A DNA stretch of 64,000 bases from a virus (IMGVR_UViG_2898615884_000001:20097-84096); one strand, 5' to 3'; shown: positions 6,726 through 62,599, numbered from the stretch's first letter. Notes: generated from the letters alone by a model not told the origin. A program made the numbers and translations.

Positions 6726-6767
6726 TGCGACAGCCCCCGACCCGGTGATGCTGGGCGGGGGCTGTAC
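6726..6767 (-). other. Intergenic stem-loop upstream of the capsid gene
   Basis: ACAGCCCCCG...CGGGGGCTGT 10-bp outer stem with an inner stem. Confidence 0.5.
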
Positions 6768-6790
6768 GGATGATCGTGACGGGGGCCGCC

Positions 6791-7177: not shown

Positions 7178-7180
7178 GGG

Positions 7181-11238: not shown

Positions 11239-11347
11239 GCATTCACCCCCTGACCTGCGTGTTTAGTTTTGTTCTGCGGCGCAGTGACGGCGGGATGCCC
11301 CGACCTCCCTTGCCCAGGGAGGTCAGGCGGTGATCGAGCTCAAGCGG

Positions 11348-25987: not shown

Positions 25988-26794
25988 ATGCCCCGCACCC
26001 TCGTTGCCGCCGCCCCCGGCCCGGCGCGTCTCGACATCACCGTCCCTTTCGGACACGTCAAGATCGCCGCCGCGCCCGGCTGCGCCACCGCCACCCTGAC
26101 CCTGACCGCGACCACCACCGACCCCGCGCTCGCCGACCTCATCGACCGCGCCACCCTCCACACCACCGACCACGGCCTCGTCGTCGCCGTCCCCAAACTC
26201 CCCGGCACCGCCACCATCCGCACCAACGGCAACTTCGGCATCCAGGTCCAGGCCAACCACGGCAGCGGCACCTTCATCGCGGGCGACTACCACGGCGCGA
26301 ACGTCATCAACGGCCAGCACATCCAGCCCGGGGCCCCGCCCCGCGCGGTATCCGGGGACATCGAGGTCGTCGCGCTCGTACCGCCCGGCAGCGACATCGA
26401 GGTCGACGGGAACGCCGCCGACCTGAGCGCCAAGGGCCGCCTCGGCTCTGTCACCGCCCACGCCAGTTCGGGGGACGTGGACGTGGACACCGCCGACACC
26501 CTGACCGTCCGCACGACGTCTGGTGACGTCCATGGCGCCGAGGTCACCGGCCGGACCGACATCACCACCACCGCCGGCGACATCAGCATCGCTAGGTTCG
26601 GCGGCACGGGCGACTTCGTCACATCCTCGGGAGACGTCACCGTCGCCGCGATTCAGCGGGGTAACGTCCGCGCCCGCACCTCAACCGGGGACATCCGCGT
26701 CACTGCCGCGCCTGGTATCGCCGAGGGGTTGACGGTCTGGGCCCGGAGCAGCGTGGGGTGTATCCGCGTTCCGGACGGGGCGGCTGCGGGCTGA
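25988..26794 (+). CDS. DUF4097-like beta-strand repeat protein
   Basis: Repeated xTxSGDVx units (ASSGDVDV, TTSGDVHG, TTAGDISI, TSSGDVTV, TSTGDIRV). Confidence 0.8.
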   Translation: MPRTLVAAAPGPARLDITVPFGHVKIAAAPGCATATLTLTATTTDPALADLIDRATLHTTDHGLVVAVPKLPGTATIRTNGNFGIQVQANHGSGTFIAGDYHGANVINGQHIQPGAPPRAVSGDIEVVALVPPGSDIEVDGNAADLSAKGRLGSVTAHASSGDVDVDTADTLTVRTTSGDVHGAEVTGRTDITTTAGDISIARFGGTGDFVTSSGDVTVAAIQRGNVRARTSTGDIRVTAAPGIAEGLTVWARSSVGCIRVPDGAAAG

Positions 26795-26844
26795 CCTAGG
26801 CGTTCTGCGTTTTCTCACGTCGTTGCGGATTTCTTGGAGGACTT

Positions 26845-28218
26845 GTGCGGGATACCGCAGAGCAGGCTCCCGCCGGGGCCGAGGCCGACCCGCCACCCGC
26901 CCCACCCCCCGAACACCACAACCCCGCGCCCGCGGAGGACATCGAGCGGACGCCACAGCCGGCCGAGGACGCGCCCCGTCCCGCGCAGGTGGTCGCCGGA
27001 CCCTCGGCAGCGATGGCCGCCGAGGTCGCGACCGCCGTGCCCGCCGCGCTGTTCCACGCCGGGGGTTGGATCGGTCTGGCCGCCGGCGCGGCCGCCGTGG
27101 TCGGGACGGGCGCGGCCGGGGTCGCCGGGCGCCGCCGGGTGGGTACTTCAGGGCGGGCGTGGACGCGGACCCGGACGTGGTCGACGGGCGGCCGGTCGAG
27201 CGCGGCGAAGATGCGGATGCCCGGCACAGGCTCGACGCGAGCGAGTGGGAGCCGGACGCCGCAGTCGTTCGGACGCTCACCCGCCAAGGGCGGCGCCACG
27301 GGCGGCCGGGCCGCTGGCATGCGCGCGGGCGGGGTCGCGGGACGGGCAAGGGCCGGGCGGCTCGGATCCGCGGCACGCCGCGCCACGGCCAGCCCAGCGG
27401 TGAGCGGCCCCGCCCGAGCAGCCCGCCGCGCCACCGCCGCGACCGGCCGAGCCGCGCGCTCGGGATCCCGGAGCACCCGACGCGGCATGGACCACGCGAC
27501 GACCGCCGCCATCCGGAACGCCCGCGCCGCCCGCGCCGCACACCGCGCCGTCGCCGGCGGCGGCACCGGACGCGACGCCGCACGCGCCGCACGCGCATCC
27601 CTGAAGGATTCCCACGCCCACCCCACCCGGATCCGGTGGCGGCGCCTCGCCGGGGCGGGCCTGTGGAGCGCGGCGGCCTGGACCTACGGGCGGAGCTACA
27701 CCGCGAGCCGGACACTCGCCCGGCGGGCGATGGCACGCCTACGCGGCCAGGACCCGGCGGACACCGACGCCGAGCGCGACCAGCCGCGGATCGAAACAAA
27801 AGTGAACCGGCCGACCGACCCGGCGGCCAACACCAGCAGAGGAGAAGACATGACCCGACGTGAGAGCGGAGGTGGCGTGCCGTCGTTCGTCGCAACGGCG
27901 CAGGAGCATGCCGAGTCCCTCGCCCGGTACGAGCCGCCGCCCGGCGCGGGCGGGATGGTGCAGATGTACCACGACATCGAGATGCTGCCCGACGCGCTGG
28001 CGTGGATCGCCCAAGGGTTCGAGCGGATGGCCACACGGTGCCGTAAGGAACTGCCATTGCACCCCGCGATCAGTGAGCTGGTCGTTGAGCTAGCGAAGAC
28101 CCAGACCCGCATGGCGTCGGTCGCGGCGGAGATCAAGCCCGCGATCACCAAACTGCACGAGGAGGACCTGAAGCGCCACGAAGCGCCGCGTCCCAGCGAA
28201 GAGCGGTGGAACGTCTGA
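26845..28218 (+). CDS. TraA-like plasmid transfer protein (TM segment, Arg/Gly-rich linker, conserved C-terminal domain)
   Basis: SD GGAGGA before GTG; C-terminus LHEEDLKRHEAPRPSEERWNV; TGATG-coupled to traB. Confidence 0.6.
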   Translation: MRDTAEQAPAGAEADPPPAPPPEHHNPAPAEDIERTPQPAEDAPRPAQVVAGPSAAMAAEVATAVPAALFHAGGWIGLAAGAAAVVGTGAAGVAGRRRVGTSGRAWTRTRTWSTGGRSSAAKMRMPGTGSTRASGSRTPQSFGRSPAKGGATGGRAAGMRAGGVAGRARAGRLGSAARRATASPAVSGPARAARRATAATGRAARSGSRSTRRGMDHATTAAIRNARAARAAHRAVAGGGTGRDAARAARASLKDSHAHPTRIRWRRLAGAGLWSAAAWTYGRSYTASRTLARRAMARLRGQDPADTDAERDQPRIETKVNRPTDPAANTSRGEDMTRRESGGGVPSFVATAQEHAESLARYEPPPGAGGMVQMYHDIEMLPDALAWIAQGFERMATRCRKELPLHPAISELVVELAKTQTRMASVAAEIKPAITKLHEEDLKRHEAPRPSEERWNV

Positions 28219-30425
28219 TGGGCGGCGTGGATTGGCGGTGGCGGCACGGGACGGTGTCCGGGCCCTTGCACGCGACGATCGCGCTGGCGACCGCCTACGA
28301 AGTCGGGACGCTGCCCGTCCTGGACGTCTCCCCGGAATGGGTCCTGATCGGCGGCGCGACCGCGGCCGGGGTGACGAGCTGGCGCGCGGCCCACGACGGC
28401 CGCTCCTGGCTCGGCCTCGGCTACCGGATCGCAGGCATCAGCGGCAGCACCCTCTGGCTGGCGCAGGCCGTCACGACCGGGTGGACGGCCACGCTCGGGT
28501 GGACGCTCGCGGCGGGCGCGGTCACCGCCGCCGGGCTTGCGCGCCCGATCCGCGCCCGCGACCGCGTCGTCGCCGAACGGCACGCCGCACAGGAAGCCGC
28601 GGCGTCCGTAGCCGCCGTGGACGCGGCCGAGCAGGAACGCTTGACGGGCATCGCCGGGGAGTGGGTCACCCGGATCGAGCGGGTGACCCAAATCGTGCTG
28701 CGCCCCCTCGACCCCCGCACCGGGAAGCGGCCACCAGTGCAGCAAGTCGTCGTCGCCGTCGAGCACTGGATGTTCCCCGGCCCCGGCGGTGTCGAGCGGT
28801 GCACCGGCTACACCCTGGAACTGGTCCTCCCGACCACGGGCGTGACGTGGCAGACGCTCTCCAATTACCAGGACAACCTCGCCGCGGCCGCCGACCTGCC
28901 CCAGGGGTGCGGGGTCGAGATCGGGCCGGGCAGGTCACGGCGCCGCGCGCTCATCGAGGTGTCCATCGTCGATGCGCTCCGCGACGACATCGCCCTCCCA
29001 CTGCCCACCGAACCCCGCACGATCAACAACCCGATCCCCGTCGGAGTGGTCCGCAACGGCGCGCAGGCGGACGTGCCGCTGCGCTACAGCTGCGCCGTCC
29101 TGGTCGGCGCGACCGGGTCGGGGAAGAGCAACGAGCTGCAGACGATCGTGGCCGGGCTGCTGTCCTGCCATGACGTGCTGGTCCTGGTGATCGACTACAA
29201 CGGCGGCGGCGTCGCGTTGCCGTGGCTGTCGCCCTGGGTCGACGGGACGATCGCCCGGTCCCCGATCCTGTGGGTGGCCGACAACGAACACGAGGCCATC
29301 ATGATGTGCGACTGGCTGATCGCCGCGATCGAGCACCGCAAACGGGCCTACCACGCCGCGAACCAGGCCCGTGACGACGACAAGCTCGCCGCAACCCCCG
29401 CCACCCCGCAGCTGGTGCTGGTCACCGACGAAGCGGGCGCGACTGGCCGCGAGGTCACCAAACGGATCGCGCAGATCTCCGACCGCGGACGCGCGGCGGC
29501 GGTGCGGACGGTGACGTGCGCGCTGCGGGCGCTGTCGGAGTACATCCCGACCGAGGTCCTCGCCCAGGCGCAGGTCCGCATCGGCATGAAGGTCAACGAC
29601 CGCAAGGAGCTGGGCTACCTCTACGACTGGGCGGGGGGCCGGGGCGGGCCGTCGCCGGAGGACGCGCCGCACACCGGCTACGGGCATGTGCGGTCGGGGC
29701 AGGAGCCGCCGCGGGTGTTCAAGGGGTATCGGACGTCGCCGTCGATGATCCGTGCGGTGGCGGTGGCGCAGGATGCGTGGCGGCCGGAGCTGGATGAGGT
29801 GACGTTGCGGATGTCGGCGGAGTGGCAGCGGGTGTTCGAGGAGCGGTGGCAGCGCTCGGCGCATCTGCTCGCGGCCGCCGGTGGACGAATGCCCGTCCCG
29901 TCGGCGGGTGGTGGAAGCCCTGAGCGGCGGGAGCGGCAGGCCCCGACGGGGCGGGGTGCGCTCCCGCCGACGCCCCCGGACGGACCGGACGCGGGGTCGA
30001 AGTTCGCCGGGCTGAACGACGCGCTCGCCGACCTGGACGCCGCCGCCGAACGGCTCCGCAACGCCACCCCGGACACGCCCGCCGGGCCGCGCGACGACGC
30101 CGCCGACGCCGCCGCGTTCGAGGCGATCGTCGCCTACGAGGTCGTCGTCCCCGAACTCGTCGTGCGCGTCCTCGCTGCGATGGGCTCCGCCGAGCGGATG
30201 CACACCCGGCAGATCGCCGAGAAGATCGGCAGCCGCGCCGAGTCGCTCGGGGGGCTGCTGTCCCAGCTCGACATCCGGCCGCTCAAGTCGGACTTCACGG
30301 TGGACGGGCGCCGCGGCCGCGGGTACGAGCGCGCGGAGGTCGAGGCGGCCGCCGAGCGGATCCGGTCGGGTGAGCTGGTGCCGCCGGAGGAGGTCGCGCG
30401 GTGGCGCCCGGACGCGCCGGCCTGA
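28218..30425 (+). CDS. traB: FtsK/SpoIIIE-like conjugative DNA translocase TraB
   Basis: N-terminal TM helices, Walker A GATGSGKS, Walker B LVLVTDE, GRAAAV, C-terminal winged helix. Confidence 0.88.
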   Translation: MGGVDWRWRHGTVSGPLHATIALATAYEVGTLPVLDVSPEWVLIGGATAAGVTSWRAAHDGRSWLGLGYRIAGISGSTLWLAQAVTTGWTATLGWTLAAGAVTAAGLARPIRARDRVVAERHAAQEAAASVAAVDAAEQERLTGIAGEWVTRIERVTQIVLRPLDPRTGKRPPVQQVVVAVEHWMFPGPGGVERCTGYTLELVLPTTGVTWQTLSNYQDNLAAAADLPQGCGVEIGPGRSRRRALIEVSIVDALRDDIALPLPTEPRTINNPIPVGVVRNGAQADVPLRYSCAVLVGATGSGKSNELQTIVAGLLSCHDVLVLVIDYNGGGVALPWLSPWVDGTIARSPILWVADNEHEAIMMCDWLIAAIEHRKRAYHAANQARDDDKLAATPATPQLVLVTDEAGATGREVTKRIAQISDRGRAAAVRTVTCALRALSEYIPTEVLAQAQVRIGMKVNDRKELGYLYDWAGGRGGPSPEDAPHTGYGHVRSGQEPPRVFKGYRTSPSMIRAVAVAQDAWRPELDEVTLRMSAEWQRVFEERWQRSAHLLAAAGGRMPVPSAGGGSPERRERQAPTGRGALPPTPPDGPDAGSKFAGLNDALADLDAAAERLRNATPDTPAGPRDDAADAAAFEAIVAYEVVVPELVVRVLAAMGSAERMHTRQIAEKIGSRAESLGGLLSQLDIRPLKSDFTVDGRRGRGYERAEVEAAAERIRSGELVPPEEVARWRPDAPA

Positions 30426-30631
30426 CCCCCACACCCCCTCCCACACCCGGGGTGTGGGAGGGGGTGTGTCAGGGGTGTGGGACCCACACCCACCCCCACA
30501 CCCCCCACAGCCCGCTGACCTGCGTAAACCACACCCCCACACCCCCCACACCCCTCCGTGCGAGGGGCCCCTTCCCCGGGCCAGGGGACCGCGCACACCC
30601 CCCGGCCGGGAGGGGTGTGGGGGGTGTGGGA
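30426..30631. repeat. clt-like cis-acting transfer locus (CCACACC repeats)
   Basis: 11 exact CCACACC copies (7 forward, 4 reverse) plus near matches, directly after traB; includes a near-perfect palindrome at 30430-30468. Confidence 0.7.
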
Positions 30632-30650
30632 GACCGAGAGGACACACACG

Positions 30651-31532
30651 ATGAGCACGCAGAAACGCCCCGGCCTGATCTGGGCGTGCGCGGTCCTGAC
30701 CATCGCAGCCGCCAACCAGCTCCTCTGGAACCTGTGGCACGCCTTCGACACCGGCATGCCGCACCCGCTGGCCGTCGCGACCGGCGCAGTGCCCGTGCTG
30801 CTCGCGCTCGGCACCTCCGCGCTCGCGGCCAGGGTCCGGTGCGGCAACGTGCAGCGGACCCTGACGTACGGCGTGATGCTCGCGGCGATCGGGATCTCGA
30901 TCCTGGCGCAGTACGACCTGCTGATGCACTGGATGGGGAGCAAGGCGGTCGCGGTGTTGTTCCCGACCGTGGGCGACCTGGCGACGCTGATCGCTCTGCA
31001 CGTGTTGATCGCCGACCCGGTCCCGGTGCGGGTGGCGGCACCGGTCCGTACGAAGGAGAAGACCCGTACGACGACGGTCCGTACGGCGCAGCCGGTGATC
31101 TGTGAGAGGTCGATCGGGACGCCGTACGTACGGGCGCCGCAGGGCGTTCTGCGGGCCGTACGGAACGAGCAGTACGTGCCGGAGCGTACGGGCGAAGAGA
31201 CCCGTACGCCGGAGCCGCGTACGCCTTCCGGCGAGCCCCGTACGGCCGAACACGCGGCCCGTACGCGCGCCGTGGTGTCCGCCCGTACGACCCGTACGGA
31301 CCAGGTCAGCGCACCCGTACGGGGCGTACGGGAAGGCCGCGCGCACTGGGTCGAGGTGCTGGCCGACGAGATCCGTACGGCCCGTACGGAAGGCCGTACG
31401 TGGGAACCGGCGTACGTCGAGCTGGAGGCCCGTACGGGGTGGGGCCGGTCGTGGTGCGAGAAGACCGTACGGGCCGCGCGCGAGGCGGCCGAGGAACGTA
31501 CGGGCACCCGTACGGGCACCGACGACGCCTAG
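30651..31532 (+). CDS. Spd/DUF2637-like membrane protein with repeat linker and C-terminal HTH
   Basis: Four N-terminal TM segments, Arg-Thr repeat linker, AYVELEARTGWGRSWCEKTVR. Confidence 0.7.
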   Translation: MSTQKRPGLIWACAVLTIAAANQLLWNLWHAFDTGMPHPLAVATGAVPVLLALGTSALAARVRCGNVQRTLTYGVMLAAIGISILAQYDLLMHWMGSKAVAVLFPTVGDLATLIALHVLIADPVPVRVAAPVRTKEKTRTTTVRTAQPVICERSIGTPYVRAPQGVLRAVRNEQYVPERTGEETRTPEPRTPSGEPRTAEHAARTRAVVSARTTRTDQVSAPVRGVREGRAHWVEVLADEIRTARTEGRTWEPAYVELEARTGWGRSWCEKTVRAAREAAEERTGTRTGTDDA

Positions 31533-31549
31533 CCAAACGGGGCCGTACG
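31047..31549. repeat. Dense array of palindromic CGTACG sites
   Basis: 24 copies counted by eye in about 500 bp, mostly as CCGTACG. Confidence 0.85.
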
Positions 31550-31561
31550 AGGCGGCCCCGT
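31537..31561 (+). other. Intergenic hairpin
   Basis: ACGGGGCCG-N7-CGGCCCCGT. Confidence 0.5.
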
Positions 31562-31585
31562 ACACACCAAGCGAAGGAGAAGGCA

Positions 31586-31951
31586 GTGCCGACGATCATC
31601 ACCTTGCCGGTCGAGATCTCAGAGGACGTCGTCCGCGCGGCGGCGCAGGGCCGAGTCCGGCAGTGGGTCGGGCCGGAGATCGCCGAGGACGTCGTACGCG
31701 CCGTCTTGGCCGACGTCCTGGGAGAGGAGAGCGACGGCCAGCTGCCCGAGCAGTCGAGGCCGGACGCGGACGAGGACGCCGTGGCGGTGTTGATGCGCAA
31801 GTACCTCGGAGTGGACCCGGCGACCGTGAGCGTGCGGAAGGTCCGGGCGGACCTGGGCGGCGCTCGGCACGACCGAGCGGTGCGCGTGAAGGACCTGTGG
31901 ACGGCGAGGTACGCGGCGGCGTTCGGCGGCCGCGCGACCGTACCGGCCTGA
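31586..31951 (+). CDS. Small protein with C-terminal HTH (Spd-like)
   Basis: SD AAGGAG; VSVRKVRADLGGARHDRAVRVKDLW. Confidence 0.6.
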   Translation: MPTIITLPVEISEDVVRAAAQGRVRQWVGPEIAEDVVRAVLADVLGEESDGQLPEQSRPDADEDAVAVLMRKYLGVDPATVSVRKVRADLGGARHDRAVRVKDLWTARYAAAFGGRATVPA

Positions 31952-32009
31952 ATCTCTGAACGGACCGGCCGTCGAGCCGGTGGAACCGATCATCGAAAGG
32001 ACAGGAACC

Positions 32010-32282
32010 ATGCCCCCCACAACCCAGCAGCCGGCCGCTTGGCCGGAGGGCGTCATCGCCCGGTACCTCACCGTCGGCGGCGCGACGGTCGATCTGATGC
32101 GCAGCCGGGCCGGGATCACGGCGGTCTGCCGCGGCTGCCCCGTCGCGCACGCCACGCGGGCGTTCGAGAGGGCGGGGTCGGTCCGGCAGGACGGCGGCAA
32201 GCGGGCGACGGAGCAGGCGCAGGAGTGGGCGCAGACGCATGCGGAGCGGTGCCGCGCCATGCCCCGCCCGGACAGCGAGTGA
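32010..32282 (+). CDS. Small Cys/His mobile-element protein
   Basis: WPEGVIARYLTVGGATVD...CRGC...WAQTHAERCRAMP. Confidence 0.65.
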   Translation: MPPTTQQPAAWPEGVIARYLTVGGATVDLMRSRAGITAVCRGCPVAHATRAFERAGSVRQDGGKRATEQAQEWAQTHAERCRAMPRPDSE

Positions 32283-32286
32283 CGTC

Positions 32287-32718
32287 GTGCCCGCGAAGAC
32301 GCTCGACATCCGCGCCTACACACCCGCCACCGCGCCACCCTGGGCCGCCGAGATCGTCACCGCGATCCGGGGAGGCGACCTCGCCAAGGGCAGCCGCCTG
32401 TTCCGCGAGGCAGCCTCGACGTCCGGTATCGAGCGCGCGGTCTACGCGGTCGCGGCGGTGGTCGAACCCGGCGCCGGTCAGCTCACGGTCGGCCCGGGGC
32501 CGCTCGTGTACGGCAACCCGCTGCGGACCGGCTACTGCTGGCGCTGCGGGACGTGCCTGGCCACCTTCCGCCGGGGCGGCCCGGCGCCTACCGCGGGCGT
32601 GAACTACAAGACCGCCCAGAGCGCGCGCGGCGCCGCAGTGAAGCACGACCGCGAGGCGCACGGGGGTCGCTCGACGGTGCACGAGCTGAGCCCGAGGGGG
32701 CGTGACCTGCGGTGCTAG
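32287..32718 (+). CDS. Hypothetical zinc-binding protein
   Basis: WRCGTC...KHDREAH; overlaps the next start. Confidence 0.5.
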   Translation: MPAKTLDIRAYTPATAPPWAAEIVTAIRGGDLAKGSRLFREAASTSGIERAVYAVAAVVEPGAGQLTVGPGPLVYGNPLRTGYCWRCGTCLATFRRGGPAPTAGVNYKTAQSARGAAVKHDREAHGGRSTVHELSPRGRDLRC

Positions 32719-33614
32719 GGAAGACGCACGCGCTGAGCGGCGCGATGATGTTCGGGGTGCTGGCGGTCCCGGCCGCGCCGGTCGCGCACCTGTCCCTCCC
32801 CGAGCTCGCCCTCGGCACCGTCGTGTGTGCGGGTGCGGCGATGCTCCCGGACATCGATCACCGCGAGTCGCATGTGGCGCGGACGCTCGGGCCGCTGTCC
32901 CGGGGGCTCGCGTGCGCGGTCGCGTGGGTCGCCGGCGGGCACCGCAGGGGTGTGCACTCGCTCGTCGGGGTGGCGGTGGTCGCGCTGCTGGCGTTCCTCG
33001 GCGCCGCGCTCCGCTCGGGGAGCACGAGCTGGGCGGTGGCCGGGATCGCCCTGGCCGCCGTCCTCGCGGGCTCCGGGCTGCTGGCCGGGATGGCGTGGCC
33101 GGGTGACCGGCGGCGCGGCCGACGCGTCTACCCCGAACGCTGGCACGGACCCGCGGCCGCCGGGGTGTTCGGCGTCGTCGCCCTGGCGCTCGCCGTCGGC
33201 GCGGCCGTGGACCCGCACGCGACCGGGACCGGCGTCCTCGCGGTCCTGCTCGTCCTCACCCTTGCGTCGGCGGCGAGGGTCTTCCACATCCGCCGGTGGA
33301 CGCGCCTGCGGACCGAGGTGGACGACCTGCTGCCGATCCCGGTCACGTTCGTCCTACTCGTCGGCGACACGAACCTCCGCGTGGTGCCCTTCGCGGTCGT
33401 CCTCGGCGTCATCGTCCACATCGCCGGAGACATGGCCACCGTCGGCGGCTGCCCGCTCGGATGGCCGTGGTCGCTGACCGCGCGGGGGCCTCGCGCGTTC
33501 AGGACGAACTCGCCCATCGAGCGGGGGCCGGTGACGTGGGCGTGCATGGTGATCTTTGCGGTGACCGTGTTCTGGAACAGCGGGATCGCGAACGCCATCA
33601 CCAGGCACGGGTAG
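32712..33614 (+). CDS. YdjM-like membrane metal-dependent hydrolase
   Basis: KTH, LPDIDH, HRRGVHS, HIAGD motifs; multiple TM helices. Confidence 0.88.
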   Translation: MLGKTHALSGAMMFGVLAVPAAPVAHLSLPELALGTVVCAGAAMLPDIDHRESHVARTLGPLSRGLACAVAWVAGGHRRGVHSLVGVAVVALLAFLGAALRSGSTSWAVAGIALAAVLAGSGLLAGMAWPGDRRRGRRVYPERWHGPAAAGVFGVVALALAVGAAVDPHATGTGVLAVLLVLTLASAARVFHIRRWTRLRTEVDDLLPIPVTFVLLVGDTNLRVVPFAVVLGVIVHIAGDMATVGGCPLGWPWSLTARGPRAFRTNSPIERGPVTWACMVIFAVTVFWNSGIANAITRHG

Positions 33615-33627
33615 CGGCGCGGCGGCG

Positions 33628-33658
33628 ACGGCCCCGAACCACACCGGTTCGGGGCCGT
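33628..33658. terminator. Hairpin between convergent operons
   Basis: ACGGCCCCGAACC-ACACC-GGTTCGGGGCCGT, 13-bp stem. Confidence 0.65.
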
Positions 33659-33679
33659 TCGCATGCTCGGCGTCAGCGC

Positions 33680-34189
33680 CTACGGAAGGATGGCGAGCGA
33701 CGTCGCCTGCGCCTGCGCCCAGCTCTGCTCACGAATCTCTTCCGCCCTTCTACTGACACAGACCTCCGACGACTCACCCGGCAGGCGCTCGGTCAAGCAG
33801 TACGTGCGAGCCTCGGCGTGCGCTGCCCTGTCCACATCCCTGGACGCCTCTCTGGCGGCGACGAGGGAGACGGCCACGGGGACCGCCGCAGCTACGAACA
33901 CGAGTCGCCTCCTGTGCCGGACCGCGATGACGCCCAGGCAGGCCGCGGTGAGCACGACCGCGACGACGAACTTGAGCGGGTCGCCGGGGATGTTGTCGAT
34001 CAGCCCCGTCCATCTCCGTCGTTCGGCGGCTCGCGTGTCCGCGTATCGGCGCCGGGCCGACCAGCCGGCGAGCCGATACGCCGCCCATCCCAGGATCGCG
34101 GATACCTGACCGGCGATGACACCGGCCGTGGCCCCGATCGCGATCGCGGTGGCCGTGACGCTGGACAGGTCTAACAATTTCCTGATCAT
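33680..34189 (-). CDS. Membrane protein
   Basis: Three hydrophobic segments; ATGA coupling. Confidence 0.55.
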   Translation of the reverse strand: MIRKLLDLSSVTATAIAIGATAGVIAGQVSAILGWAAYRLAGWSARRRYADTRAAERRRWTGLIDNIPGDPLKFVVAVVLTAACLGVIAVRHRRRLVFVAAAVPVAVSLVAAREASRDVDRAAHAEARTYCLTERLPGESSEVCVSRRAEEIREQSWAQAQATSLAILP

Positions 34190-34581
34190 GGACTGCTCCC
34201 AGGGGTATGCCGGATGCGGGGCCGCTGGACGTGGAGGTGCTCGACCGTGACCAGGCGGCCGGACTCCCGTAGCCGCGCCGCGAGGAGCTCCGCTACAGCG
34301 ACCGACCGGTCATGCCCCTGCGAGCAGCCCAACCCGATCGACGCGGTGCCCGGCGCGCACGCTCGGGCGTAGAGCCGGTCCAGCAGTTCGGCAGCGGCGG
34401 AGTCGGCGAGCACGACCTCTCGGACCGCCTGGTCCCGCCCATCCACCGGGCTGACCTCTAACAGCGCGAGGATGCGGTGGTAGCCGGCCGGGTCGGCGAG
34501 CTGGTGGCGGAGGTCCTCGACATGGTCGGCGGGCGGGGGCGGGCCGTGAAGGTAGCCGAACGAGACCAGGTGGACGGTCAT
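34186..34581 (-). CDS. Stand-alone RapZ C-terminal-like domain protein
   Basis: VHLVSFGYLHG...DLR..L.DP...GC-x-x-GH-x-RSVAVAELL. Confidence 0.8.
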   Translation of the reverse strand: MTVHLVSFGYLHGPPPPADHVEDLRHQLADPAGYHRILALLEVSPVDGRDQAVREVVLADSAAAELLDRLYARACAPGTASIGLGCSQGHDRSVAVAELLAARLRESGRLVTVEHLHVQRPRIRHTPGSSP

Positions 34582-34802
34582 GTCTTGGTGTCCTCCTGGA
34601 GGTCGGTGCGGGCCCCCTGGCCAGGTCGTTGATGGGCGAGGATCGTGGCCGGCCTCCAGACCGGTGAACGGCCGAACTGCTTGTCCTCGGGTGGGAGTTC
34701 GCCGCGGGCTCGGTAGCGGCGCGCGGAGGCGTACTTGATTCCGTAGTGGTCGGCGACGTCTTGGAGTGTCCAGTAGTCGGCGTCGGGGTCGGGCTTGGTC
34801 AC
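34578..34802 (-). CDS. HTH regulator (AlpA/excisionase-like)
   Basis: YWTLQDVADHYGIKYASARRYRARGELPPED..FGRSPVW. Confidence 0.75.
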   Translation of the reverse strand: MTKPDPDADYWTLQDVADHYGIKYASARRYRARGELPPEDKQFGRSPVWRPATILAHQRPGQGARTDLQEDTKT

Positions 34803-34885
34803 GGGTGCGGGCTCCCATCGTCTACTTGATGGGGACAAAGTCTAGGCCGTGGGTTGTGGCGGTCCCTCAAAGCTACTTCGTCTCT

Positions 34886-34932
34886 CTGATGTTGACAAGG
34901 TTGCTCGCCTCTCCTAACCTTGTCTACATCAG
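34886..34932 (+). promoter_or_regulatory. Housekeeping-sigma-type promoter overlapped by an operator inverted repeat
   Basis: TTGACA(34892)-17 bp-TAACCT(34915); CTGATGTTGACAAGGTT-N13-AACCTTGTCTACATCAG. Confidence 0.8.
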
Positions 34933-34955
34933 GACGACAAAGACTGGAGGGTGAC

Positions 34956-35408
34956 ATGGCGAAGCGGACCACCACCAAGACGGCCCACTGCCGCCGCTGC
35001 CGCGCCCTCCTCACCAACCCCCGCTCCGTCGCCGAAGGCATCACCCGCCCCTGCCTCCGCAAGGAGCGCGCAGAGGCCGCCGCGCTCGCAGAAGCCCGCG
35101 CCTCCGTCGTCGAGGTCGCCGTCAACGCCATCGACACCACCGCCTTCAAAAACCCGCAGGCCGTCAAGGACAAGGCCGTCCAGCTCATCCTCGACGGCGC
35201 GATCGTCCCCACCCGCTTCGACGGCGTGTACCTCGCCACCGGCTCCGACGGCGTGTCGACCTACCTCACCGACACCGTCGAGCGGTCGTGCACCTGCAAA
35301 GCGGGCCAGCGCCTCGGCCGCTGCAACCACCTGATCGCGGGCGACGCGCTCGACCTGCTCGACAACGGCGCCTTCGCCAGCACCACCGCCATCCTGCTCG
35401 CCGCCTGA
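34956..35408 (+). CDS. DUF6011-like plus SWIM zinc-finger protein
   Basis: CRRCRALLTNPRSVAEGITRPC; CTCKAG...CNH. Confidence 0.7.
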   Translation: MAKRTTTKTAHCRRCRALLTNPRSVAEGITRPCLRKERAEAAALAEARASVVEVAVNAIDTTAFKNPQAVKDKAVQLILDGAIVPTRFDGVYLATGSDGVSTYLTDTVERSCTCKAGQRLGRCNHLIAGDALDLLDNGAFASTTAILLAA

Positions 35409-35432
35409 ACTGCTTTCCCGAAGGAGACCAAG

Positions 35433-35717
35433 ATGAGCGCACGCTGGGACCGGCTCGCGGCCACCCTCGCCGAGGCTGGCATCGCCACCGAGGTCGACCG
35501 CCGCACATGGCACGGCGAAACCGTCTGCCGCATCACCATGCGCGTAGACGGCGGCCTGATCACCATCGGCGACACGTGGCGCCGCGGCCGCTGGACCGGA
35601 TGGCAGGTCACTGCTGAGGACACCGACGACATCGTCGTCCGCGAGTTCCCCAAGACGAAGAAGCGCGCCGAGGTCCGGCAGCACGTTGAGGAAGCCCGCG
35701 CCGTCCTCGCAAGCTGA
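35433..35717 (+). CDS. Hypothetical protein
   Basis: SD AAGGAG, 94 aa. Confidence 0.6.
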   Translation: MSARWDRLAATLAEAGIATEVDRRTWHGETVCRITMRVDGGLITIGDTWRRGRWTGWQVTAEDTDDIVVREFPKTKKRAEVRQHVEEARAVLAS

Positions 35718-35723
35718 CGCCCC

Positions 35724-35749
35724 GTCTCGGGCCGGTACCGGCCCGAGAC
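35724..35749 (+). other. Perfect 26-bp palindrome after a stop codon
   Basis: GTCTCGGGCCGGTACCGGCCCGAGAC. Confidence 0.65.
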
Positions 35750-35789
35750 AGGACGCCGGCTCACCCCCCTGATCAGGAAGGACCCCGAT

Positions 35790-35942
35790 ATGTACACGCT
35801 CCGCGCTGTCGCGGCGCTCGCGTCGCTGATCTGTTTCGCGGTCACCGTCACCACCCAGGGGTTCGGTGTCCTGGCCCTGATCGGCGGGATCGCGGTCACG
35901 TGCTGGGTCCTGGTTCTCGCGCTTACTCCTCGGAGGCGCTGA
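35790..35942 (+). CDS. 50-aa two-TM peptide
   Basis: SD AGGAAGGA; MYTLRAVAALASLICFAVTV. Confidence 0.55.
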   Translation: MYTLRAVAALASLICFAVTVTTQGFGVLALIGGIAVTCWVLVLALTPRRR

Positions 35943-36027
35943 CGGTGTGCTGGGCGCTCCCCACCCCGCCGGGGGAGCGCCCAGCATCCACCAGCACCCC
36001 ACCCCACCCCACCGGAGGGAGATCCCG

Positions 36028-36168
36028 ATGCAGCGCTGCACCGAGTGCGCCGTGACCAAGCCCGACGTGCGCGAACGCCCTGACCCTTGCGAGGAGGACG
36101 TCAACGGCCGCGAGGTCCGCCGGGACCTGTGCGACGACTGCGAGGCCGCGATCTCGAACGAGGTCTGA
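36028..36168 (+). CDS. 46-aa zinc-binding peptide
   Basis: SD GGAGG; CTEC...CDDC. Confidence 0.55.
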   Translation: MQRCTECAVTKPDVRERPDPCEEDVNGREVRRDLCDDCEAAISNEV

Positions 36169-36207
36169 CCAGCCCCATCTACCCCACCGCGAACCCGAAG
36201 GAGACCC

Positions 36208-36660
36208 ATGGACCTCCAAGACCTCAAGCAGCTGCCGGAAGGCACGCAACTCCGCACCACCAAGAAGGAGATCGTCACCCTCGCCGGCTTCGTCCGGTCC
36301 GTCGTGATCGTCCGGCACGCGGACGGCGGAACCCGCGAGTACAGGTCGGTCAGCCTCCACCACGTCACGGACGTCCACCCGCTCATCACCCGCGAGCGCG
36401 CCGGTCTGACCGGTCACACGGTCACGGTGGAGCGCGTGGGCCGGGACGCGGCCCGCCAGTTCGCTGGCACCGTCCCGAACTGGGAGGGGCTGATCGGCCG
36501 ACTCGCCGTGGTGGAGCGGACCGACGGGCGCCTCGGCAAGGTCTGTGACGTCGCCGGGGTGAACGGCCTCGGCGACGGTGAGGACGATGTCGTGTTCGCG
36601 GCGTCGAGCGTGGCGTGCGCGTACGGCGCCCGGTACGTCCCCACCGGAACCCTGACCTGA
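36208..36660 (+). CDS. Hypothetical protein
   Basis: SD AAGGAG, 150 aa. Confidence 0.6.
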   Translation: MDLQDLKQLPEGTQLRTTKKEIVTLAGFVRSVVIVRHADGGTREYRSVSLHHVTDVHPLITRERAGLTGHTVTVERVGRDAARQFAGTVPNWEGLIGRLAVVERTDGRLGKVCDVAGVNGLGDGEDDVVFAASSVACAYGARYVPTGTLT

Positions 36661-36666
36661 CGCCCC

Positions 36667-36705
36667 GCCCCGGTCTCGTCCGCGGGTGGCGGACGAGACC
36701 GGGGC
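36667..36705 (+). other. Intergenic hairpin, 17-bp stem
   Basis: GCCCCGGTCTCGTCCGC-GGGTG-GCGGACGAGACCGGGGC. Confidence 0.65.
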
Positions 36706-36749
36706 AGGCCGCCAGACCAGGCCCAACCCACCACCAAAGGAAGGCGCGC

Positions 36750-37250
36750 ATGGGCTACGACACCGACTTCACCGGCAAGATCCAGATCGAGCCGCCCCTC
36801 AACCCCAGCGAAATCAGCTACCTGCGCCGGTTCTCCGACTCCCGCCGGATGCACCGCGACACCGGCCCCTACTACCTGGGGAACCGCCGCCCCGAGGAGA
36901 ACGACACCGGCGTCGTCGACCCCAACTCCCCGCCCCCGGAACAGCCGGGCCTGTGGTGCGACTGGGTCCCGACACCCGACGGCACGGCGATCGAGTGGAA
37001 CCGGATGGAGAAGTTCTACTACGCCACCGAGTGGATGGAGTACCTGATCAACGCGTTCCTGTCGGAAGGCGCGGACGTCCAGGCCGAGCTGAAGGCGCCG
37101 ATCGTCGGCCGGTTCTACCCGCCGGAGTTCGCGGAGTTCACGTTCGACCACGTCCTCAGCGGGACGGTCGAGGCGCAGGGCGACGACCCGGACGACCGGT
37201 GGGACCTGGTCGTCTCCGACAACGAGGTCCAGAGGGTGGAGAAGGGCTGA
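36750..37250 (+). CDS. Conserved phage hypothetical protein
   Basis: MGYDTDFTG...LWCDWVP...IEWN..EKFY...EW..YLI...AQGDDPDDRW. Confidence 0.7.
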   Translation: MGYDTDFTGKIQIEPPLNPSEISYLRRFSDSRRMHRDTGPYYLGNRRPEENDTGVVDPNSPPPEQPGLWCDWVPTPDGTAIEWNRMEKFYYATEWMEYLINAFLSEGADVQAELKAPIVGRFYPPEFAEFTFDHVLSGTVEAQGDDPDDRWDLVVSDNEVQRVEKG

Positions 37251-37620: not shown

Positions 37621-37653
37621 GGGTTTCCAGTTGACTGCTGAAACTGGAAACCC
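37621..37653 (-). terminator. Hairpin downstream of the methyltransferase gene
   Basis: GGGTTTCCAGTT-N9-AACTGGAAACCC. Confidence 0.6.
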
Positions 37654-37664
37654 GGGCGCTCGCG

Positions 37665-38804
37665 TCAGGGGCTGATGATGTTGGACGGGGCGTCGCGCCA
37701 AACCACCTGACGGTCGGGGCCCACGGTCAGCCCGAACTCCTCCCGGCCGGGACGCCCCCACCCTGTCCACCGCTCGTACGCGGAGGCGACCTCGTCCCAC
37801 AGCCGCCGCGGCCCCGCCTGCCACACCCGATGCTCGCCGTCGCCCTGCCGGACCCGCGCCCACGAGGTCCCGGCCGTGTCCGCCAACTCCACCTCGACCA
37901 CGCCGTCCCGCTCGCGGGGCGCGCCCATGACATCCGGGAGCGCGCCGGTGATCGCGACGTCCGCGCCGAGACTGCCGGTCACCTCACCGGGATCGAGGTC
38001 CGTGGTGGTCTCATCCGCGCCCGCCATGTCCGCAGGCACGGTCAAGGTGCTGCGCTGCGCGCGGAGGATCATGTAGTTCGTGGTCCCGATGAGCCGGCCG
38101 ACCGCGTGCCCGTCGCCGGTGACGGTCAGGACCGCCTTGTGGCCTTCCCCGTACTCCGGCATCCACGGGACCACGATCCGGCCGCCCGGCCGGGTCTGCT
38201 CCACCCACGCATACGGGACATCACCGACACCGCAGGTGACGTGGACACCATCGAACGGCGCACGATCGGGGACGCCGAGCGCACCGTCGCCGGTGACTAT
38301 GAGCGGGTCGAACCCGGCCAGGTCCAGGGTCTCGCAGGCAGTAGCGGCGAGGCCCGGGTCGACCTCCACCGTGGTCACGTCCGCGCCGAGCGCGGTCAAC
38401 AGCGCCGCCGTCCACCCGGTGCCGGTGCCGATCTCCAGGACCCGGTCACCGGGCTGGACGTCGAGCGCCTCCAGGAACGCCACGACCGCGCCCGGGGCCG
38501 ACAGCGAAGACGTGGCCTCGGCGACGCCCTGGGCCGGGTCAGCGGCTCCGTCGGCGGCCTGGACGACGATGGACCCGTCGCTGTACACCGCGTCCCACCA
38601 GACGTCCGGGTCGGCGTCGCGGTCGATGCGGTGGCGGGGGCCGGGGCCGTTCGTCGCGAACCAGCCGCGGGCCGGCGCGAACAGGTGCCGGGGGGCGGCG
38701 TGCAAGGCGTCCCGGGTGCGGGTGCTGATGAGGAAGCCGCGGGCGGTCAGGGTGTCGGTGAGCGCGTCGGTGCGTGCGCTGGTGTCGGTGGTGTGGACGG
38801 TCAT
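37665..38804 (-). CDS. PIMT-like peptide/protein aspartyl O-methyltransferase with C-terminal extension (PAMT type)
   Basis: PRHLF, VLEIGTGTGWTAALL, PFDGVHVT, WVEQTRPGGRIV; C-terminal QAGPRRLWDEV...FGLTV. Confidence 0.9.
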   Translation of the reverse strand: MTVHTTDTSARTDALTDTLTARGFLISTRTRDALHAAPRHLFAPARGWFATNGPGPRHRIDRDADPDVWWDAVYSDGSIVVQAADGAADPAQGVAEATSSLSAPGAVVAFLEALDVQPGDRVLEIGTGTGWTAALLTALGADVTTVEVDPGLAATACETLDLAGFDPLIVTGDGALGVPDRAPFDGVHVTCGVGDVPYAWVEQTRPGGRIVVPWMPEYGEGHKAVLTVTGDGHAVGRLIGTTNYMILRAQRSTLTVPADMAGADETTTDLDPGEVTGSLGADVAITGALPDVMGAPRERDGVVEVELADTAGTSWARVRQGDGEHRVWQAGPRRLWDEVASAYERWTGWGRPGREEFGLTVGPDRQVVWRDAPSNIISP

Positions 38805-38911
38805 TTGCCTTTGCCCTTGTCGGGCTTGCCCTTCTCGTCCTTCTCGGCGGGAGGGACGGGACGGTCGGGCTCGTAGGAGTCCTCGTCGGATCGGTCGCCG
38901 TGCTTGCCCAT
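38801..38911 (-). CDS. 36-aa charged peptide, putative imiditide/pamtide precursor
   Basis: SD GGAGGAG; MGKHGDRSDEDSYEPDRPVPPAEKDEKGKPDKGKGK; ATGA overlap with the methyltransferase. Confidence 0.75.
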   Translation of the reverse strand: MGKHGDRSDEDSYEPDRPVPPAEKDEKGKPDKGKGK

Positions 38912-39016
38912 GGTTCTCCTCCGGGGTCGAGCGGACGTGCCCACAGTGCGGTGACCGACGGTACTAGCGCCCTGACCAACGGTGGTCTAGCCCGGCGGTC
39001 AGACAACCGTGCCGAC

Positions 39017-41822: not shown

Positions 41823-42343
41823 AGCAGCTCCAGTTGTCCGGTGGGGTGCGCGGTGGCGCGCTTGGGCTTCTTGGGCTCGGCCGCGCGGCGGAGGGACGGT
41901 CGGGGGGCGGGTCGTGCGGCGGGTGCGGGGATCCCGGCGTCCCGCCGCGCGACCTGGACGGCGATCCGCTCCGCACGCCGCTCGGCATACGGCTGCGCGC
42001 GAACCTGGCGGAGGATCATCTCGGCAGCGCGCCACGGGTCGGCCTCACGGCGACAATCCGCACACCGGCCGACGACGTTCTCGTGATGGCAGAGCTGCAC
42101 ACCGTCCGGCTCCGTCATCGCGCGGGCGTTGTGGTTGTTGACCCTGGCCTGGATAGACGCGGGCCGCTCCTCCGGGATCCGGAACGGGTTGTCAGCCTCC
42201 TGCGCACGGGCCATCGCGTCACGAAGCTGAGCCGTGGTCATCCCCTTGCGGCACTCGGGCCCAATCCGGAACGCACGGGATGCCGGGTCGGTGAGCGGCT
42301 TTCCGCATTCGGTGCAGGTGGGGTCGACCACGCGGATGCTCAT
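41819..42343 (-). CDS. DUF6011-like protein
   Basis: CTECGKPLTDPASRAFRIGPEC. Confidence 0.72.
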   Translation of the reverse strand: MSIRVVDPTCTECGKPLTDPASRAFRIGPECRKGMTTAQLRDAMARAQEADNPFRIPEERPASIQARVNNHNARAMTEPDGVQLCHHENVVGRCADCRREADPWRAAEMILRQVRAQPYAERRAERIAVQVARRDAGIPAPAARPAPRPSLRRAAEPKKPKRATAHPTGQLELL

Positions 42344-42573
42344 GCCGGGCCCGCGCCGTTCTTGAGCGCCAGGCCGTGCTGGATGAGGGCGGTGTGCACG
42401 TCATCCAGCGACTTGGTCCCGAAGTTGCGGATGTCGAGCAGATCGAACGCATCGCACGCCGCGAGGTCGCCGATGGTGCGGATCCCCTCACGCATCAGCG
42501 CGTTGTAGGCGCGGGGCGACAGGTTCAGCAACGCGATCGGGTCGCCCGGCTGGAGGGTGCGGGTGGTGGCCAT
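42340..42573 (-). CDS. Stand-alone RNA polymerase alpha-CTD-like protein
   Basis: PIALLNLSPRAYNALMREGIRTIGDL...DLLDIRNFGTKSLDDV...GLAL. Confidence 0.85.
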   Translation of the reverse strand: MATTRTLQPGDPIALLNLSPRAYNALMREGIRTIGDLAACDAFDLLDIRNFGTKSLDDVHTALIQHGLALKNGAGPA

Positions 42574-57094: not shown

Positions 57095-57522
57095 GTGCTG
57101 CTCGCCTTCATGCGTGCGCGATAGCGCCTATTGGCTTCGTTCTTGCAGGTGCGGCAGGTCCGCTGGCGCCCTGTCCGCACGGTGTTCGCGGGGGTCTCGG
57201 GGTGGTCGCAGCGGAATGCCCGGGGCGCGCCGGCGCGGTAAGCGCCGCGCGCGACGTTGTCGGGGCGAGAGACCGGCTGGAGGTGATCGGGGTTGCAGCA
57301 CTCCCGGACGCGACACAGGTGATCCAGGTCCATGCCCTCCGGCACCGGCCCGACAAGCAGTTCCCATACGAACCGGTGGACGACTGCGGTTCCGAGGCCG
57401 CGACGCCCCCGGTTGATGGCGCCGTAGCCGTTGCGGTGCTTCGCGCCGGTCCAGAGCCAGCACGGGCCATCCGCGTCGATGCGGGCCCAGAGCCGCTCGT
57501 CGAGAGGTTTGACCTTCCTCAT
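57091..57522 (-). CDS. HNH endonuclease
   Basis: CWLWTGA...HRFVWELLVGPVPEGMDLDHLCRVRECCNPDHL. Confidence 0.9.
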   Translation of the reverse strand: MRKVKPLDERLWARIDADGPCWLWTGAKHRNGYGAINRGRRGLGTAVVHRFVWELLVGPVPEGMDLDHLCRVRECCNPDHLQPVSRPDNVARGAYRAGAPRAFRCDHPETPANTVRTGRQRTCRTCKNEANRRYRARMKASST

Positions 57523-62570: not shown

Positions 62571-62599
62571 GCGGACCACCTCCCCGCGGAGACACCCTC

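What the first reader, a model, noticed from the sequence alone, without database searches (positions are those of the whole stretch)
37665..38911. Prophage-encoded two-gene RiPP-like cassette: charged 36-aa peptide plus PIMT-like methyltransferase
Seen: a strong SD precedes MGKHGDRSDEDSYEPDRPVPPAEKDEKGKPDKGKGK (missed by the ORF track). Its stop overlaps the ATG of a 379-aa PIMT homologue carrying the extra C-terminal domain, and a 12-bp hairpin follows. Known: such extended PIMT homologues install aspartimide/isoaspartate in lanthipeptides, lasso peptides and graspetides, and act alone on short charged peptides in imiditides/pamtides. Notable: the peptide has six Asp but no Asp-Gly, and there is no protease or exporter. 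Inference: an intracellular modified peptide serving a phage function such as signalling, anti-defence or a timer.
Basis: partly seen in the sequence, partly recalled or inferred. Interest (0 to 1): 0.75.

Follow-up and report, generated by a model that had tools for sequence, protein, structure and literature searches.

The report
Prophage-borne imiditide peptide–methyltransferase cassette
A tiny gene for a 36-residue charged peptide, coupled to a specialised aspartate methyltransferase, is an ordinary member of a known class of modified peptides (imiditides / type I pamtides). It is unusual only because an integrated phage carries it, and isolated Streptomyces phages carry similar pairs.

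Summary
On the minus strand, a GGAGGAG ribosome-binding site precedes a 36-codon ORF (38911..38801). Its stop overlaps the ATG of a 379-aa PIMT homologue (38804..37665), and a 12-bp hairpin follows.

The enzyme has the PIMT core plus the C-terminal extension typical of RiPP enzymes (WxxxGxP motif; full-length match to TIGR04188 and to phrog_13505). The peptide belongs to a conserved family found upstream of such enzymes. Family members start with MGKH, have an acidic N-half and a basic tail, and share two conserved Asp.

I file it as a new member of the imiditide / type I pamtide class. The missing Asp-Gly, protease and exporter are normal for that class.

The prophage setting is real. The element is about 77 kb, with the integrase on one side of the cassette and the head, tail and lysis genes on the other. 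A related Actinomadura litoris prophage carries the same pair. On the tree the enzyme nests inside chromosomal Actinomadura copies, and homology to a chromosomal copy covers exactly the two ORFs. This suggests capture from a chromosome.

Independent pairs occur in Austintatiousvirus phages and in IMG/VR contigs, often beside the repressor-like regulator. The imiditide papers I read do not mention phages. The role in phage biology is untested.

First readers of this scan noted similar phage-borne pairs in other genomes.

The parts
38916..38922 (-). Shine-Dalgarno GGAGGAG, 4 nt upstream of the peptide ATG
   Evidence: Read directly from the sequence.
38801..38911 (-). Precursor peptide gene, 36 aa (P0001). 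It starts MGKH, has an acidic N-half (net -3) and a basic C-half (net +2), and has conserved Asp at positions 11 and 25.
   Evidence: Translation. Orthologous 36-aa ORFs: P0125, P0126. Alignment A3. Further orthologues upstream of L128, L129 and L130. Composition.
37665..38804 (-). PAMT-type O-methyltransferase, 379 aa (P0002). PIMT core about residues 96-240 with GTGTG at 126-130. C-terminal extension about residues 240-379 with WTGWGRP at 346-352.
   Evidence: Pfam PCMT 2.5e-27. TIGR04188 full length, 276 bits. phrog_13505 full length, 337 bits. AF2 model pLDDT 94. Foldseek hits to PIMT structures.
37621..37653 (-). 12-bp perfect hairpin with a 9-nt loop and no U tail, 11 nt after the methyltransferase stop. 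Possibly a terminator or RNA-stabilising element.
   Evidence: It is not shared with the chromosomal A. terrae copy.
38912..39016 (-). 105-nt gap between the upstream 244-aa phage gene and the peptide gene. It is the only place where the cassette could have its own promoter; none was detected.
   Evidence: No sigma-70 consensus site. No stable fold: z = +1.27.

Best explanation
This is a two-gene imiditide (type I pamtide) cassette carried as cargo by an integrated siphovirus-like prophage of about 77 kb in an Actinomadura-like genome.

Inferred mechanism, by homology to NmaA/NmaM and SpaA/SpaM:
1. The two genes are translationally coupled.
2. The methyltransferase binds the linear 36-aa peptide through charge complementarity, using its C-terminal extension.
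3. It uses SAM to methylate the side chain of one specific Asp.
4. The methyl ester cyclises to an aspartimide (-18 Da), which then hydrolyses to isoAsp or Asp.

Modified residue: my estimate is Asp25, in the most conserved block (the KD after the P-I/V-P-P motif), at about 55%. Asp11 (G-D-S/A) is about 35%.

Fate of the product: no protease or exporter is encoded, so the product probably stays in the cell.

Origin: the phage lineage most likely captured the cassette from an Actinomadura chromosome.

Role: what it does for the phage is not known. My leading guess is an accessory, moron-like role in phage-host or phage-phage conflict.
For: Enzyme:
- PIMT core plus full-length matches to RiPP-type models.
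- GxGxG and WxxxGxP motifs are present.
- Confident PIMT-fold model with an extra C-terminal domain.

Peptide:
- Its length, same-strand position and overlap with the enzyme gene meet the published mining criteria (10.1101/2023.04.07.536058). Its G/P/D/K/E-rich make-up, acidic N-half and basic C-half match what PMC10787088 describes for type I precursors.
- Orthologous peptides are conserved in frame and length.
- MGKH-type peptides stand upstream of many homologues.

Unit of conservation:
- blastn homology to the chromosomal A. terrae copy spans 38913..37662, which is exactly the two ORFs.

Prophage:
- Tape measure, major head protein, protease, portal, large terminase and integrase lie in the window.
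- Minor tail protein and endolysin lie to the left; a host acyl-CoA dehydrogenase lies to the right.
- A syntenic A. litoris prophage carries the same pair.

Capture from a chromosome:
- The phage pair is sister to the chromosomal pair and nests within chromosomal homologues.

Recurrence in phages:
- Austintatiousvirus phages.
- 29 IMG/VR contigs, about 15 of them with peptide-like upstream ORFs.
- Confirmed phage neighbours in several of these contigs.
Against: - No experiment: translation, binding and modification are all inferred.
- The score against TIGR04188 (276 bits) is below its curated cutoff of 380. That model is for graspetide-associated enzymes, and no ATP-grasp gene is nearby.
- The peptide evolves fast. 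Against the two orthologues, 10-12 codons changed the residue and 7-8 were silent, with little third-position bias. Constraint falls mainly on the C-terminal block.
- The modified Asp cannot be assigned. Site 1 is Asn in one relative, and site 2 is Asn-Asp-Pro in another.
- No promoter was found, so it is unknown whether expression happens in lysogeny or in the lytic cycle.
- The same cassette in non-phage loci argues against a function tied to phages.
Confidence: 0.82

Rival explanations
1. The peptide is not the end product. It is a tightly bound partner (adaptor, inhibitor or specificity subunit) of the methyltransferase, and the complex modifies other phage or host proteins.
For: - NmaA stays bound to NmaM even in 8 M urea, and turnover is low (10.1101/2023.04.07.536058).
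- No protease or exporter is encoded.
- PAMTs are also found next to an FHA-domain protein with a P/G-rich region, which the authors suggest may be a protein substrate (PMC10787088).
- The chromosomal paralogue in this genome keeps an intact enzyme although its precursor gene lost its 5' half.
Against: - In the two systems tested, the peptide itself is modified at a defined Asp (papers above).
- Conserved Asp positions in the peptide family fit a substrate.
- No candidate third partner is conserved between the phage and chromosomal contexts.
Confidence: 0.1
2. The enzyme is a general isoaspartate repair methyltransferase brought by the phage, and the small ORF is a chance open frame in GC-rich DNA.
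For: - The PIMT catalytic core is clear.
- All three frames are open over the small ORF.
- No Pfam or NCBIfam family matches the peptide.
Against: - The scores against the two canonical PIMT models, TIGR00080 and PRK00312, are far below their cutoffs: 81.8 against 159 and 103 against 188.
- A 140-residue C-terminal extension with WxxxGxP is present.
- The ORF has a strong SD and ATGA coupling, and keeps the same 36-codon length in the A. litoris and A. terrae orthologues (the others are 32-33 aa) and a conserved C-terminal block in five orthologues.
- Homology to the chromosomal copy starts 2 nt before the peptide ATG.
Confidence: 0.04
3. The cassette is neutral hitch-hiking cargo with no benefit to the phage. 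It was picked up once by illegitimate recombination and has not yet been lost.
For: - It nests within chromosomal copies.
- Only two prophages of this lineage were found.
- Imiditide cassettes are very common in this bacterial family, with homologues in 55 of 151 genomes. Occasional inclusion in prophages is therefore expected.
Against: - Both genes are intact in two prophages whose local DNA has diverged to 88.6% identity.
- Unrelated Streptomyces phages carry their own pairs at a recurrent place beside the phrog_5823 regulator.
- The viral label needs at least 8 changes on the tree.
Confidence: 0.25

Closest known systems
Imiditide mNmaA(M): NmaA/NmaM of Nonomuraea maritima (10.1101/2023.04.07.536058; review PMC13001092)
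   Same: - Two-gene unit with an unannotated 30-75 aa precursor directly upstream.
- 300-450 aa PIMT homologue with GxGxG and a C-terminal extension.
- Linear G/P/D/K-rich peptide.
- Recognition by charge.
- No protease or exporter.
- Related hosts (Nonomuraea and Actinomadura were the founding genera).
   Different: - The peptide here is shorter (36 against 46 aa).
- No Asp-His; the candidate sites are Asp-Glu and Asp-Ser.
- It is carried by a prophage, and the papers do not mention phages.
Type I pamtide SpaA/SpaM of Streptomyces sparsogenes (PMC10787088)
   Same: - A stand-alone PAMT acts as the primary modifying enzyme on a linear peptide of about 45 aa.
- The peptide has acidic N-terminal and basic C-terminal conserved residues.
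- Modification occurs at a mid-peptide Asp (Asp23).
- The C-terminal residues are needed.
   Different: - Different genus and peptide subgroup.
- The held copy of their dataset is cut, so I could not check whether this cassette or its orthologues are already listed.
Austintatiousvirus small ORF plus 'O-methyltransferase' (for example PapayaSalad gp25/gp24; Alderaan HQ601_00034/33)
   Same: - A full-length PAMT (40-42% identity, with the C-terminal domain aligned).
- It is directly preceded by a Gly/Ser/Asp-rich peptide with a similar GKHG N-terminal start and a Lys end.
- It is carried by a temperate actinophage.
   Different: - It belongs to a separate clade made only of viral rows in my sample.
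- It sits between the lysis genes and the regulator/integrase module rather than inside an early operon.
- It is annotated only as a methyltransferase and a hypothetical protein.
Lanthiphages: class I (FxLD-type) lanthipeptide clusters with an FxlM PIMT-like methyltransferase (10.1101/2024.06.26.600839)
   Same: - An actinobacterial RiPP system that contains a PIMT-family methyltransferase.
- It is shown to defend against phages and is found more often on prophages and plasmids.
- It gives a precedent for a conflict role.
   Different: - It needs a LanB dehydratase and a LanC cyclase, which are absent here.
- The match to TIGR04364 covers the core only (125 bits against a cutoff of 320).
Canonical protein-L-isoaspartate O-methyltransferase (Pcm/PIMT)
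   Same: Same catalytic fold and SAM-binding motifs.
   Different: - Canonical enzymes are about 210 aa, lack the C-terminal extension and repair isoAsp in damaged proteins.
- This protein scores far below the equivalog cutoffs.

Membership tests
Imiditides / type I pamtides | PIMT-homologous methyltransferase of 300-450 aa with a GxGxG SAM-binding motif | tested here: met
   379 aa. GTGTG at 126-130, invariant in alignment A1. Pfam PCMT 2.5e-27.
Imiditides / type I pamtides | C-terminal extension of 110-180 aa with the RiPP-type WxxxGxP motif | tested here: met
   - Residues about 240-379 are confidently folded.
- WTGWGRP lies at 346-352; W346 and P352 are invariant.
- Full-length alignment to TIGR04188 and phrog_13505.
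Imiditides / type I pamtides | The 41-aa C-terminal motif used by Cao et al. to mine imiditide enzymes | not testable with these tools
   The motif exists only as a figure. Indirect support: 49-54% identity to Nonomuraea and Actinomadura homologues, and homologues in this family's genomes carry MGKH-type upstream peptides.
Imiditides / type I pamtides | Short ORF (30-75 aa, at least one Asp) on the same strand within 500 bp upstream | tested here: met
   36 aa, six Asp, and its stop overlaps the enzyme's ATG.
Imiditides / type I pamtides | Precursor rich in Gly/Pro/Asp/Lys, with conserved acidic N-terminal and basic C-terminal residues and a conserved Asp | tested here: met
   K7, D6, G5, P5 and E4 out of 36 residues. 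Net charge -3 in the N-half and +2 in the C-half. D11 and D25 are conserved across orthologues.
Imiditides / type I pamtides | No primary RiPP enzyme (ATP-grasp, LanB/LanC, lasso cyclase) in the neighbourhood | tested here: met
   Neighbours give NUDIX, DUF6011, DUF6205, RapZ_C, RNA_pol_A_CTD and DUF4326 hits, or no hit at all. Not every small ORF in the window was scanned.
Imiditides / type I pamtides | Enzyme-dependent +14 Da (methyl ester) and -18 Da (aspartimide) on the peptide | not testable with these tools
   This needs co-expression and LC-MS. The complex predictor was closed.
Graspimiditide methyltransferases (TIGR04188) | Score above the curated cutoff and an adjacent ATP-grasp maturase | tested here: not met
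   276 bits against a cutoff of 380, and no ATP-grasp gene nearby. By contrast, more distant homologues L012-L017 do have an ATP-grasp C-terminus directly upstream.
Canonical Pcm (TIGR00080 / PRK00312) | Equivalog score and a single domain of about 210 aa | tested here: not met
   81.8 bits against 159, and 103 bits against 188. The protein is 379 aa with an extra domain.
MADS defence system (PADLOC mad2) | Full-length match to mad2 and the other mad genes nearby | tested here: not met
   Only residues 106-212 match profile positions 279-394 of 492, E = 8e-15. This is the shared methyltransferase core. None of the seven nearby ORFs scanned matched a mad model.

The most novel reading that the evidence does not exclude
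Imiditide cassettes are recurrent, selected cargo of temperate actinophages. In Streptomyces phages they sit beside the repressor-like regulator. They act inside the lysogen in phage-phage or phage-host conflict, for example by excluding other phages as lanthiphages do, or through an aspartimide that traps or times a target. If so, phages such as Alderaan or PapayaSalad in Streptomyces venezuelae would give the first genetic route to the unknown biological function of this RiPP class.
Probability: 0.3. Interest if true: 0.7.

Novelty: new member of a known kind. Interest (0 to 1): 0.45.

Why it matters
The chemistry of imiditides / pamtides has been known since 2023. Their biological role is stated to be the main open problem (PMC13001092).

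This locus adds no new chemistry. Together with the phage copies found here, it shows that such pairs travel on temperate actinophages, including isolated phages with a tractable host. The imiditide and pamtide papers I could read do not mention phages.

This points to simple experiments, such as deletion in a phage followed by infection and lysogeny assays. These could connect the class to a function.

The case also shows that the precursor gene is still missed by annotation in places. No small gene is called upstream of the homologues in L128-L130, and the Alderaan small CDS is annotated with a longer 5' extension than the PapayaSalad one.

Tried and rejected
- Degenerate DNA pattern for the conserved C-terminal peptide block in IMG/VR: 44 hits, all in AT-rich contigs (mean GC 0.41), none next to a PAMT. 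These are chance matches.
- Single-protein scans of IMG/VR with P0002, the upstream 244-aa protein and the major head protein found no relatives. The 244-aa protein was not found in 300 other genomes of the family. I therefore could not find cassette-free relatives of this prophage to show a clean insertion.
- megablast of 18 kb of the window against isolated phages: no match.
- Promoter and terminator consensus scan: nothing found. The time of expression stays unknown.
- The upstream 244-aa and downstream 80-aa genes have no family or usable Atlas match. They are shared only with the A. litoris prophage and not with chromosomal copies, so I do not count them as part of the cassette.
- PADLOC: only a core-domain hit to mad2, rejected as membership.
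- PDB by sequence: canonical PIMTs only, none reaching past residue 239.
- The stored supplementary dataset of PMC10787088 is cut, so prior listing of this cassette could not be checked.
- No tRNA gene was found in the window, so none marks an attachment site.

Full report
**1. The observation**

The genes lie on the minus strand.
- GGAGGAG sits at 38922..38916, 4 nt before an ATG at 38911.
- The ORF 38911..38801 encodes 36 residues (P0001). It has six Asp, none followed by Gly or Pro.
- Its TGA overlaps the ATG of a 379-aa ORF at 38804..37665 (P0002).
- Eleven nucleotides after that stop comes a perfect 12-bp stem with a 9-nt loop (37653..37621). It has no U tail.
- The ORF listing offers a longer 47-aa version from a GTG. 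Similarity to orthologues begins at the ATG.

The description is correct.

**2. The enzyme**

- Pfam finds the PIMT core (PCMT, 2.5e-27, residues 98-216).
- NCBIfam aligns the whole protein to the RiPP-type model TIGR04188 (276 bits, below its cutoff of 380).
- The two canonical PIMT models, TIGR00080 and PRK00312, score only 82 and 103 bits, against cutoffs of 159 and 188.
- The best full-length match is a phage family, phrog_13505 'methyltransferase' (337 bits, E = 2e-100).
- GTGTG (126-130) and WTGWGRP (346-352) are present and conserved.
- An AlphaFold2 model built on 29 homologues is confident (pLDDT 94).
- Foldseek matches PIMT structures over the first 245 or so residues (TM up to 0.90 by target). 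The best overall hit is the two-domain Thermotoga enzyme 1dl5.
- By sequence, no PDB match reaches past residue 239 of the query, so the rest of the C-terminal extension has no solved counterpart.

**3. The peptide is a real, conserved partner**

- The closest homologues (84%, 77% and 66% identity) were fetched with their flanks. Each has a small ORF ending in the same ATGA overlap (P0125, P0126, P0127). Three more orthologues were read upstream of L128, L129 and L130.
- They share the MG(K/R)H start, a G-D-S/A site, a P-I/V-P-P run, an invariant E-K-D-E-K-G-K block and a Lys/Gly tail (A3).
- More distant homologues in the same bacterial family carry MGKH-type peptides too.
- The N-half changes quickly. 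Against the two orthologues, 10-12 codons changed the residue and 7-8 were silent. Constraint is on the frame, the length and the C-terminal block.
- blastn against the chromosomal A. terrae copy matches window 38913..37662 at 81.6% identity. This covers the two ORFs and nothing else.

**4. What is known**

Imiditides (Cao et al., 10.1101/2023.04.07.536058), also called type I pamtides (Lee et al., PMC10787088), are exactly such pairs.
- The precursor is often unannotated, is rich in Gly, Pro, Asp and Lys, and has conserved acidic and basic residues at its N- and C-termini.
- The PIMT homologue methylates one Asp of the linear peptide. This gives a methyl ester, then an aspartimide, then isoAsp or Asp.
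- The modified residues are Asp28 (followed by His) in NmaA and Asp23 in SpaA.
- The clusters contain only these two genes. They are commonest in Streptomyces, Actinomadura and Nonomuraea (PMC13001092).

The absent Asp-Gly, protease and exporter are therefore the rule, not an oddity. All testable membership criteria are met, so I file the locus as a new member of this class.

Site of modification:
- Asp25 is my first choice. It is the only Asp in the invariant block and lies in the C-terminal half of the peptide; the mapped sites, Asp23 of about 45 in SpaA and Asp28 of 46 in NmaA, lie at or just past the middle.
- Asp11 is second. Its small n+1 residue favours imide formation.
- Relatives with Asn at one site or the other keep this open.

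**5. The prophage**

- The window holds tape measure, major head protein, protease, portal and large terminase (2-13102, minus strand). It also holds a RecE-like exonuclease (57519-58604) and an integrase (62129-64000).
- To the left of the window lie the rest of the tape measure, a minor tail protein and an endolysin. To the right lies a host acyl-CoA dehydrogenase.
- The element spans roughly 77 kb, and the cassette lies well inside it. It sits at the end of a leftward early-gene block, after a NUDIX gene and a 244-aa gene.
- An A. litoris contig is 88.6% identical over 3 kb here. It has the same order: NUDIX, 244 aa, peptide, enzyme, 80 aa.

**6. Origin**

- The genome's own chromosomal paralogue on contig C3 (78% aa) lies in the same locus as the A. 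terrae copy: EACC1, caspase-like, glyoxalase, DUF498, then the pair.
- On a maximum-likelihood tree the two prophage enzymes are sisters (support 94). Together they are sister to this chromosomal pair (99), nested among chromosomal homologues (100).
- Capture by the phage from a chromosome is the simplest reading. The root is by midpoint only, so the direction is inferred.
- Homologues at E <= 1e-60 occur in 55 of 151 sampled genomes of the family, often in several copies.
- Other close relatives sit in an integrase-bearing element (L128), next to an XhoI-type restriction system (L129), or among metabolic genes (L130).

**7. Other phages**

- tblastn finds full-length relatives (40-42% identity) in five isolated Streptomyces venezuelae phages of the genus Austintatiousvirus.
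- In PapayaSalad and Alderaan, a small Gly/Ser/Asp-rich ORF with a similar GKHG start stands directly upstream. The pair lies between the lysis genes and the regulator/integrase module.
- A profile scan of IMG/VR gave 29 contigs. About 15 of them have peptide-like upstream ORFs.
- Flanks tested by PHROGs show endolysin, tail fibre, terminase and portal genes. In L056, L057, L061, L064 and L075 there is a phrog_5823 regulator within a few kb.
- On the tree the viral label needs at least eight changes. The Austintatiousvirus group forms an all-viral clade in my sample, but few Streptomyces chromosomes were included.
- None of the four imiditide / pamtide papers mentions phages. Three literature searches found nothing linking the two.

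**8. Function**

Nothing here shows what the modified peptide does.
- One precedent for a conflict role exists. Lanthiphages are actinobacterial lanthipeptide clusters that include a PIMT-like methyltransferase. They defend against phages and are found more often on prophages and plasmids (10.1101/2024.06.26.600839).
- The cassette also sits in ordinary chromosomal loci, so any function is not restricted to phages.

**9. Verdict**

The locus is a new but ordinary member of a known RiPP class. The phage carriage is real and recurrent, and I did not find it in the literature. That is a modestly interesting lead towards the open question of what imiditides are for.

First readers of this scan noted comparable phage-borne pairs in other genomes (e1-5844971, e1-5844962, e1-5795242). 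One peptide they describe matches my IMG/VR locus L077.

Noticed in passing
G000:C3:112571-113704 (L004; L081:8587-11140): The chromosomal paralogue (78% aa, 92% nt to the A. terrae copy) keeps an intact methyltransferase. A 1.37-kb replacement has removed the promoter region and the first 21 codons of its precursor gene, leaving only the conserved C-terminal block in frame. The orphaned enzyme might act on the prophage peptide; this is untested.
   Followed up: partly
G000:C7:160595-163007 (L005, L006); also C1:311933-312990 and C14:102371-103027: The genome holds more PAMT copies. C7 has a tandem pair (45-47% identity), one of them preceded by a GTG-started GKHED-type peptide. On C1 a copy is split over two frames and is probably frameshifted. 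C14 has a partial copy.
   Followed up: no
window 25988-37250 (+): A rightward operon with an FtsK/SpoIIIE-like (TraB-like) ATPase (28206-30425; phrog_31069, 375 bits) interrupts the leftward phage genes. A 752-aa counterpart lies in the A. litoris prophage (L018:17369-19627). This suggests a conserved phage-conjugation hybrid. First-reader notes e1-5849727 and e1-5849719 describe it.
   Followed up: partly
window 42340-42573 (-): A 77-aa protein consists of an RNA polymerase alpha C-terminal domain (Pfam RNA_pol_A_CTD, 7e-18). The same family hit appears in the A. litoris prophage (L018:5453-5689).
   Followed up: partly
L056, L057, L061, L064, L075 (IMG/VR); L001 (PapayaSalad): In Streptomyces-type temperate phage contigs, the peptide-PAMT pair recurrently lies within a few kb of a regulator of about 400 aa (phrog_5823). 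In L057, L061 and PapayaSalad it also lies close to lysis genes, and in L057 and L075 close to tail genes. This is the classic place for lysogeny-expressed cargo.
   Followed up: partly
L061, L062, L063, L069 (IMG/VR): A separate viral PAMT subclade has a different upstream peptide type: a Gly run, then G-D-x-L-P-G, a Pro-rich stretch and P-D-G-G. It does not resemble the MGKH family.
   Followed up: no
L128 (Actinomadura sp. KC06) and L129 (A. spongiicola): Close orthologues of the cassette (63-67% aa) have unannotated precursors. One lies in an element with an integrase, NUDIX and GntR genes. The other lies beside an XhoI-type restriction-modification pair. Both are mobile or defence-island-like surroundings.
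   Followed up: partly
L018:3097-3954 (A. litoris prophage): The related prophage carries a gene with a DpdA-family hit (precomputed Pfam). This hints at 7-deazaguanine DNA modification. I did not look for the counterpart in the window.
   Followed up: no
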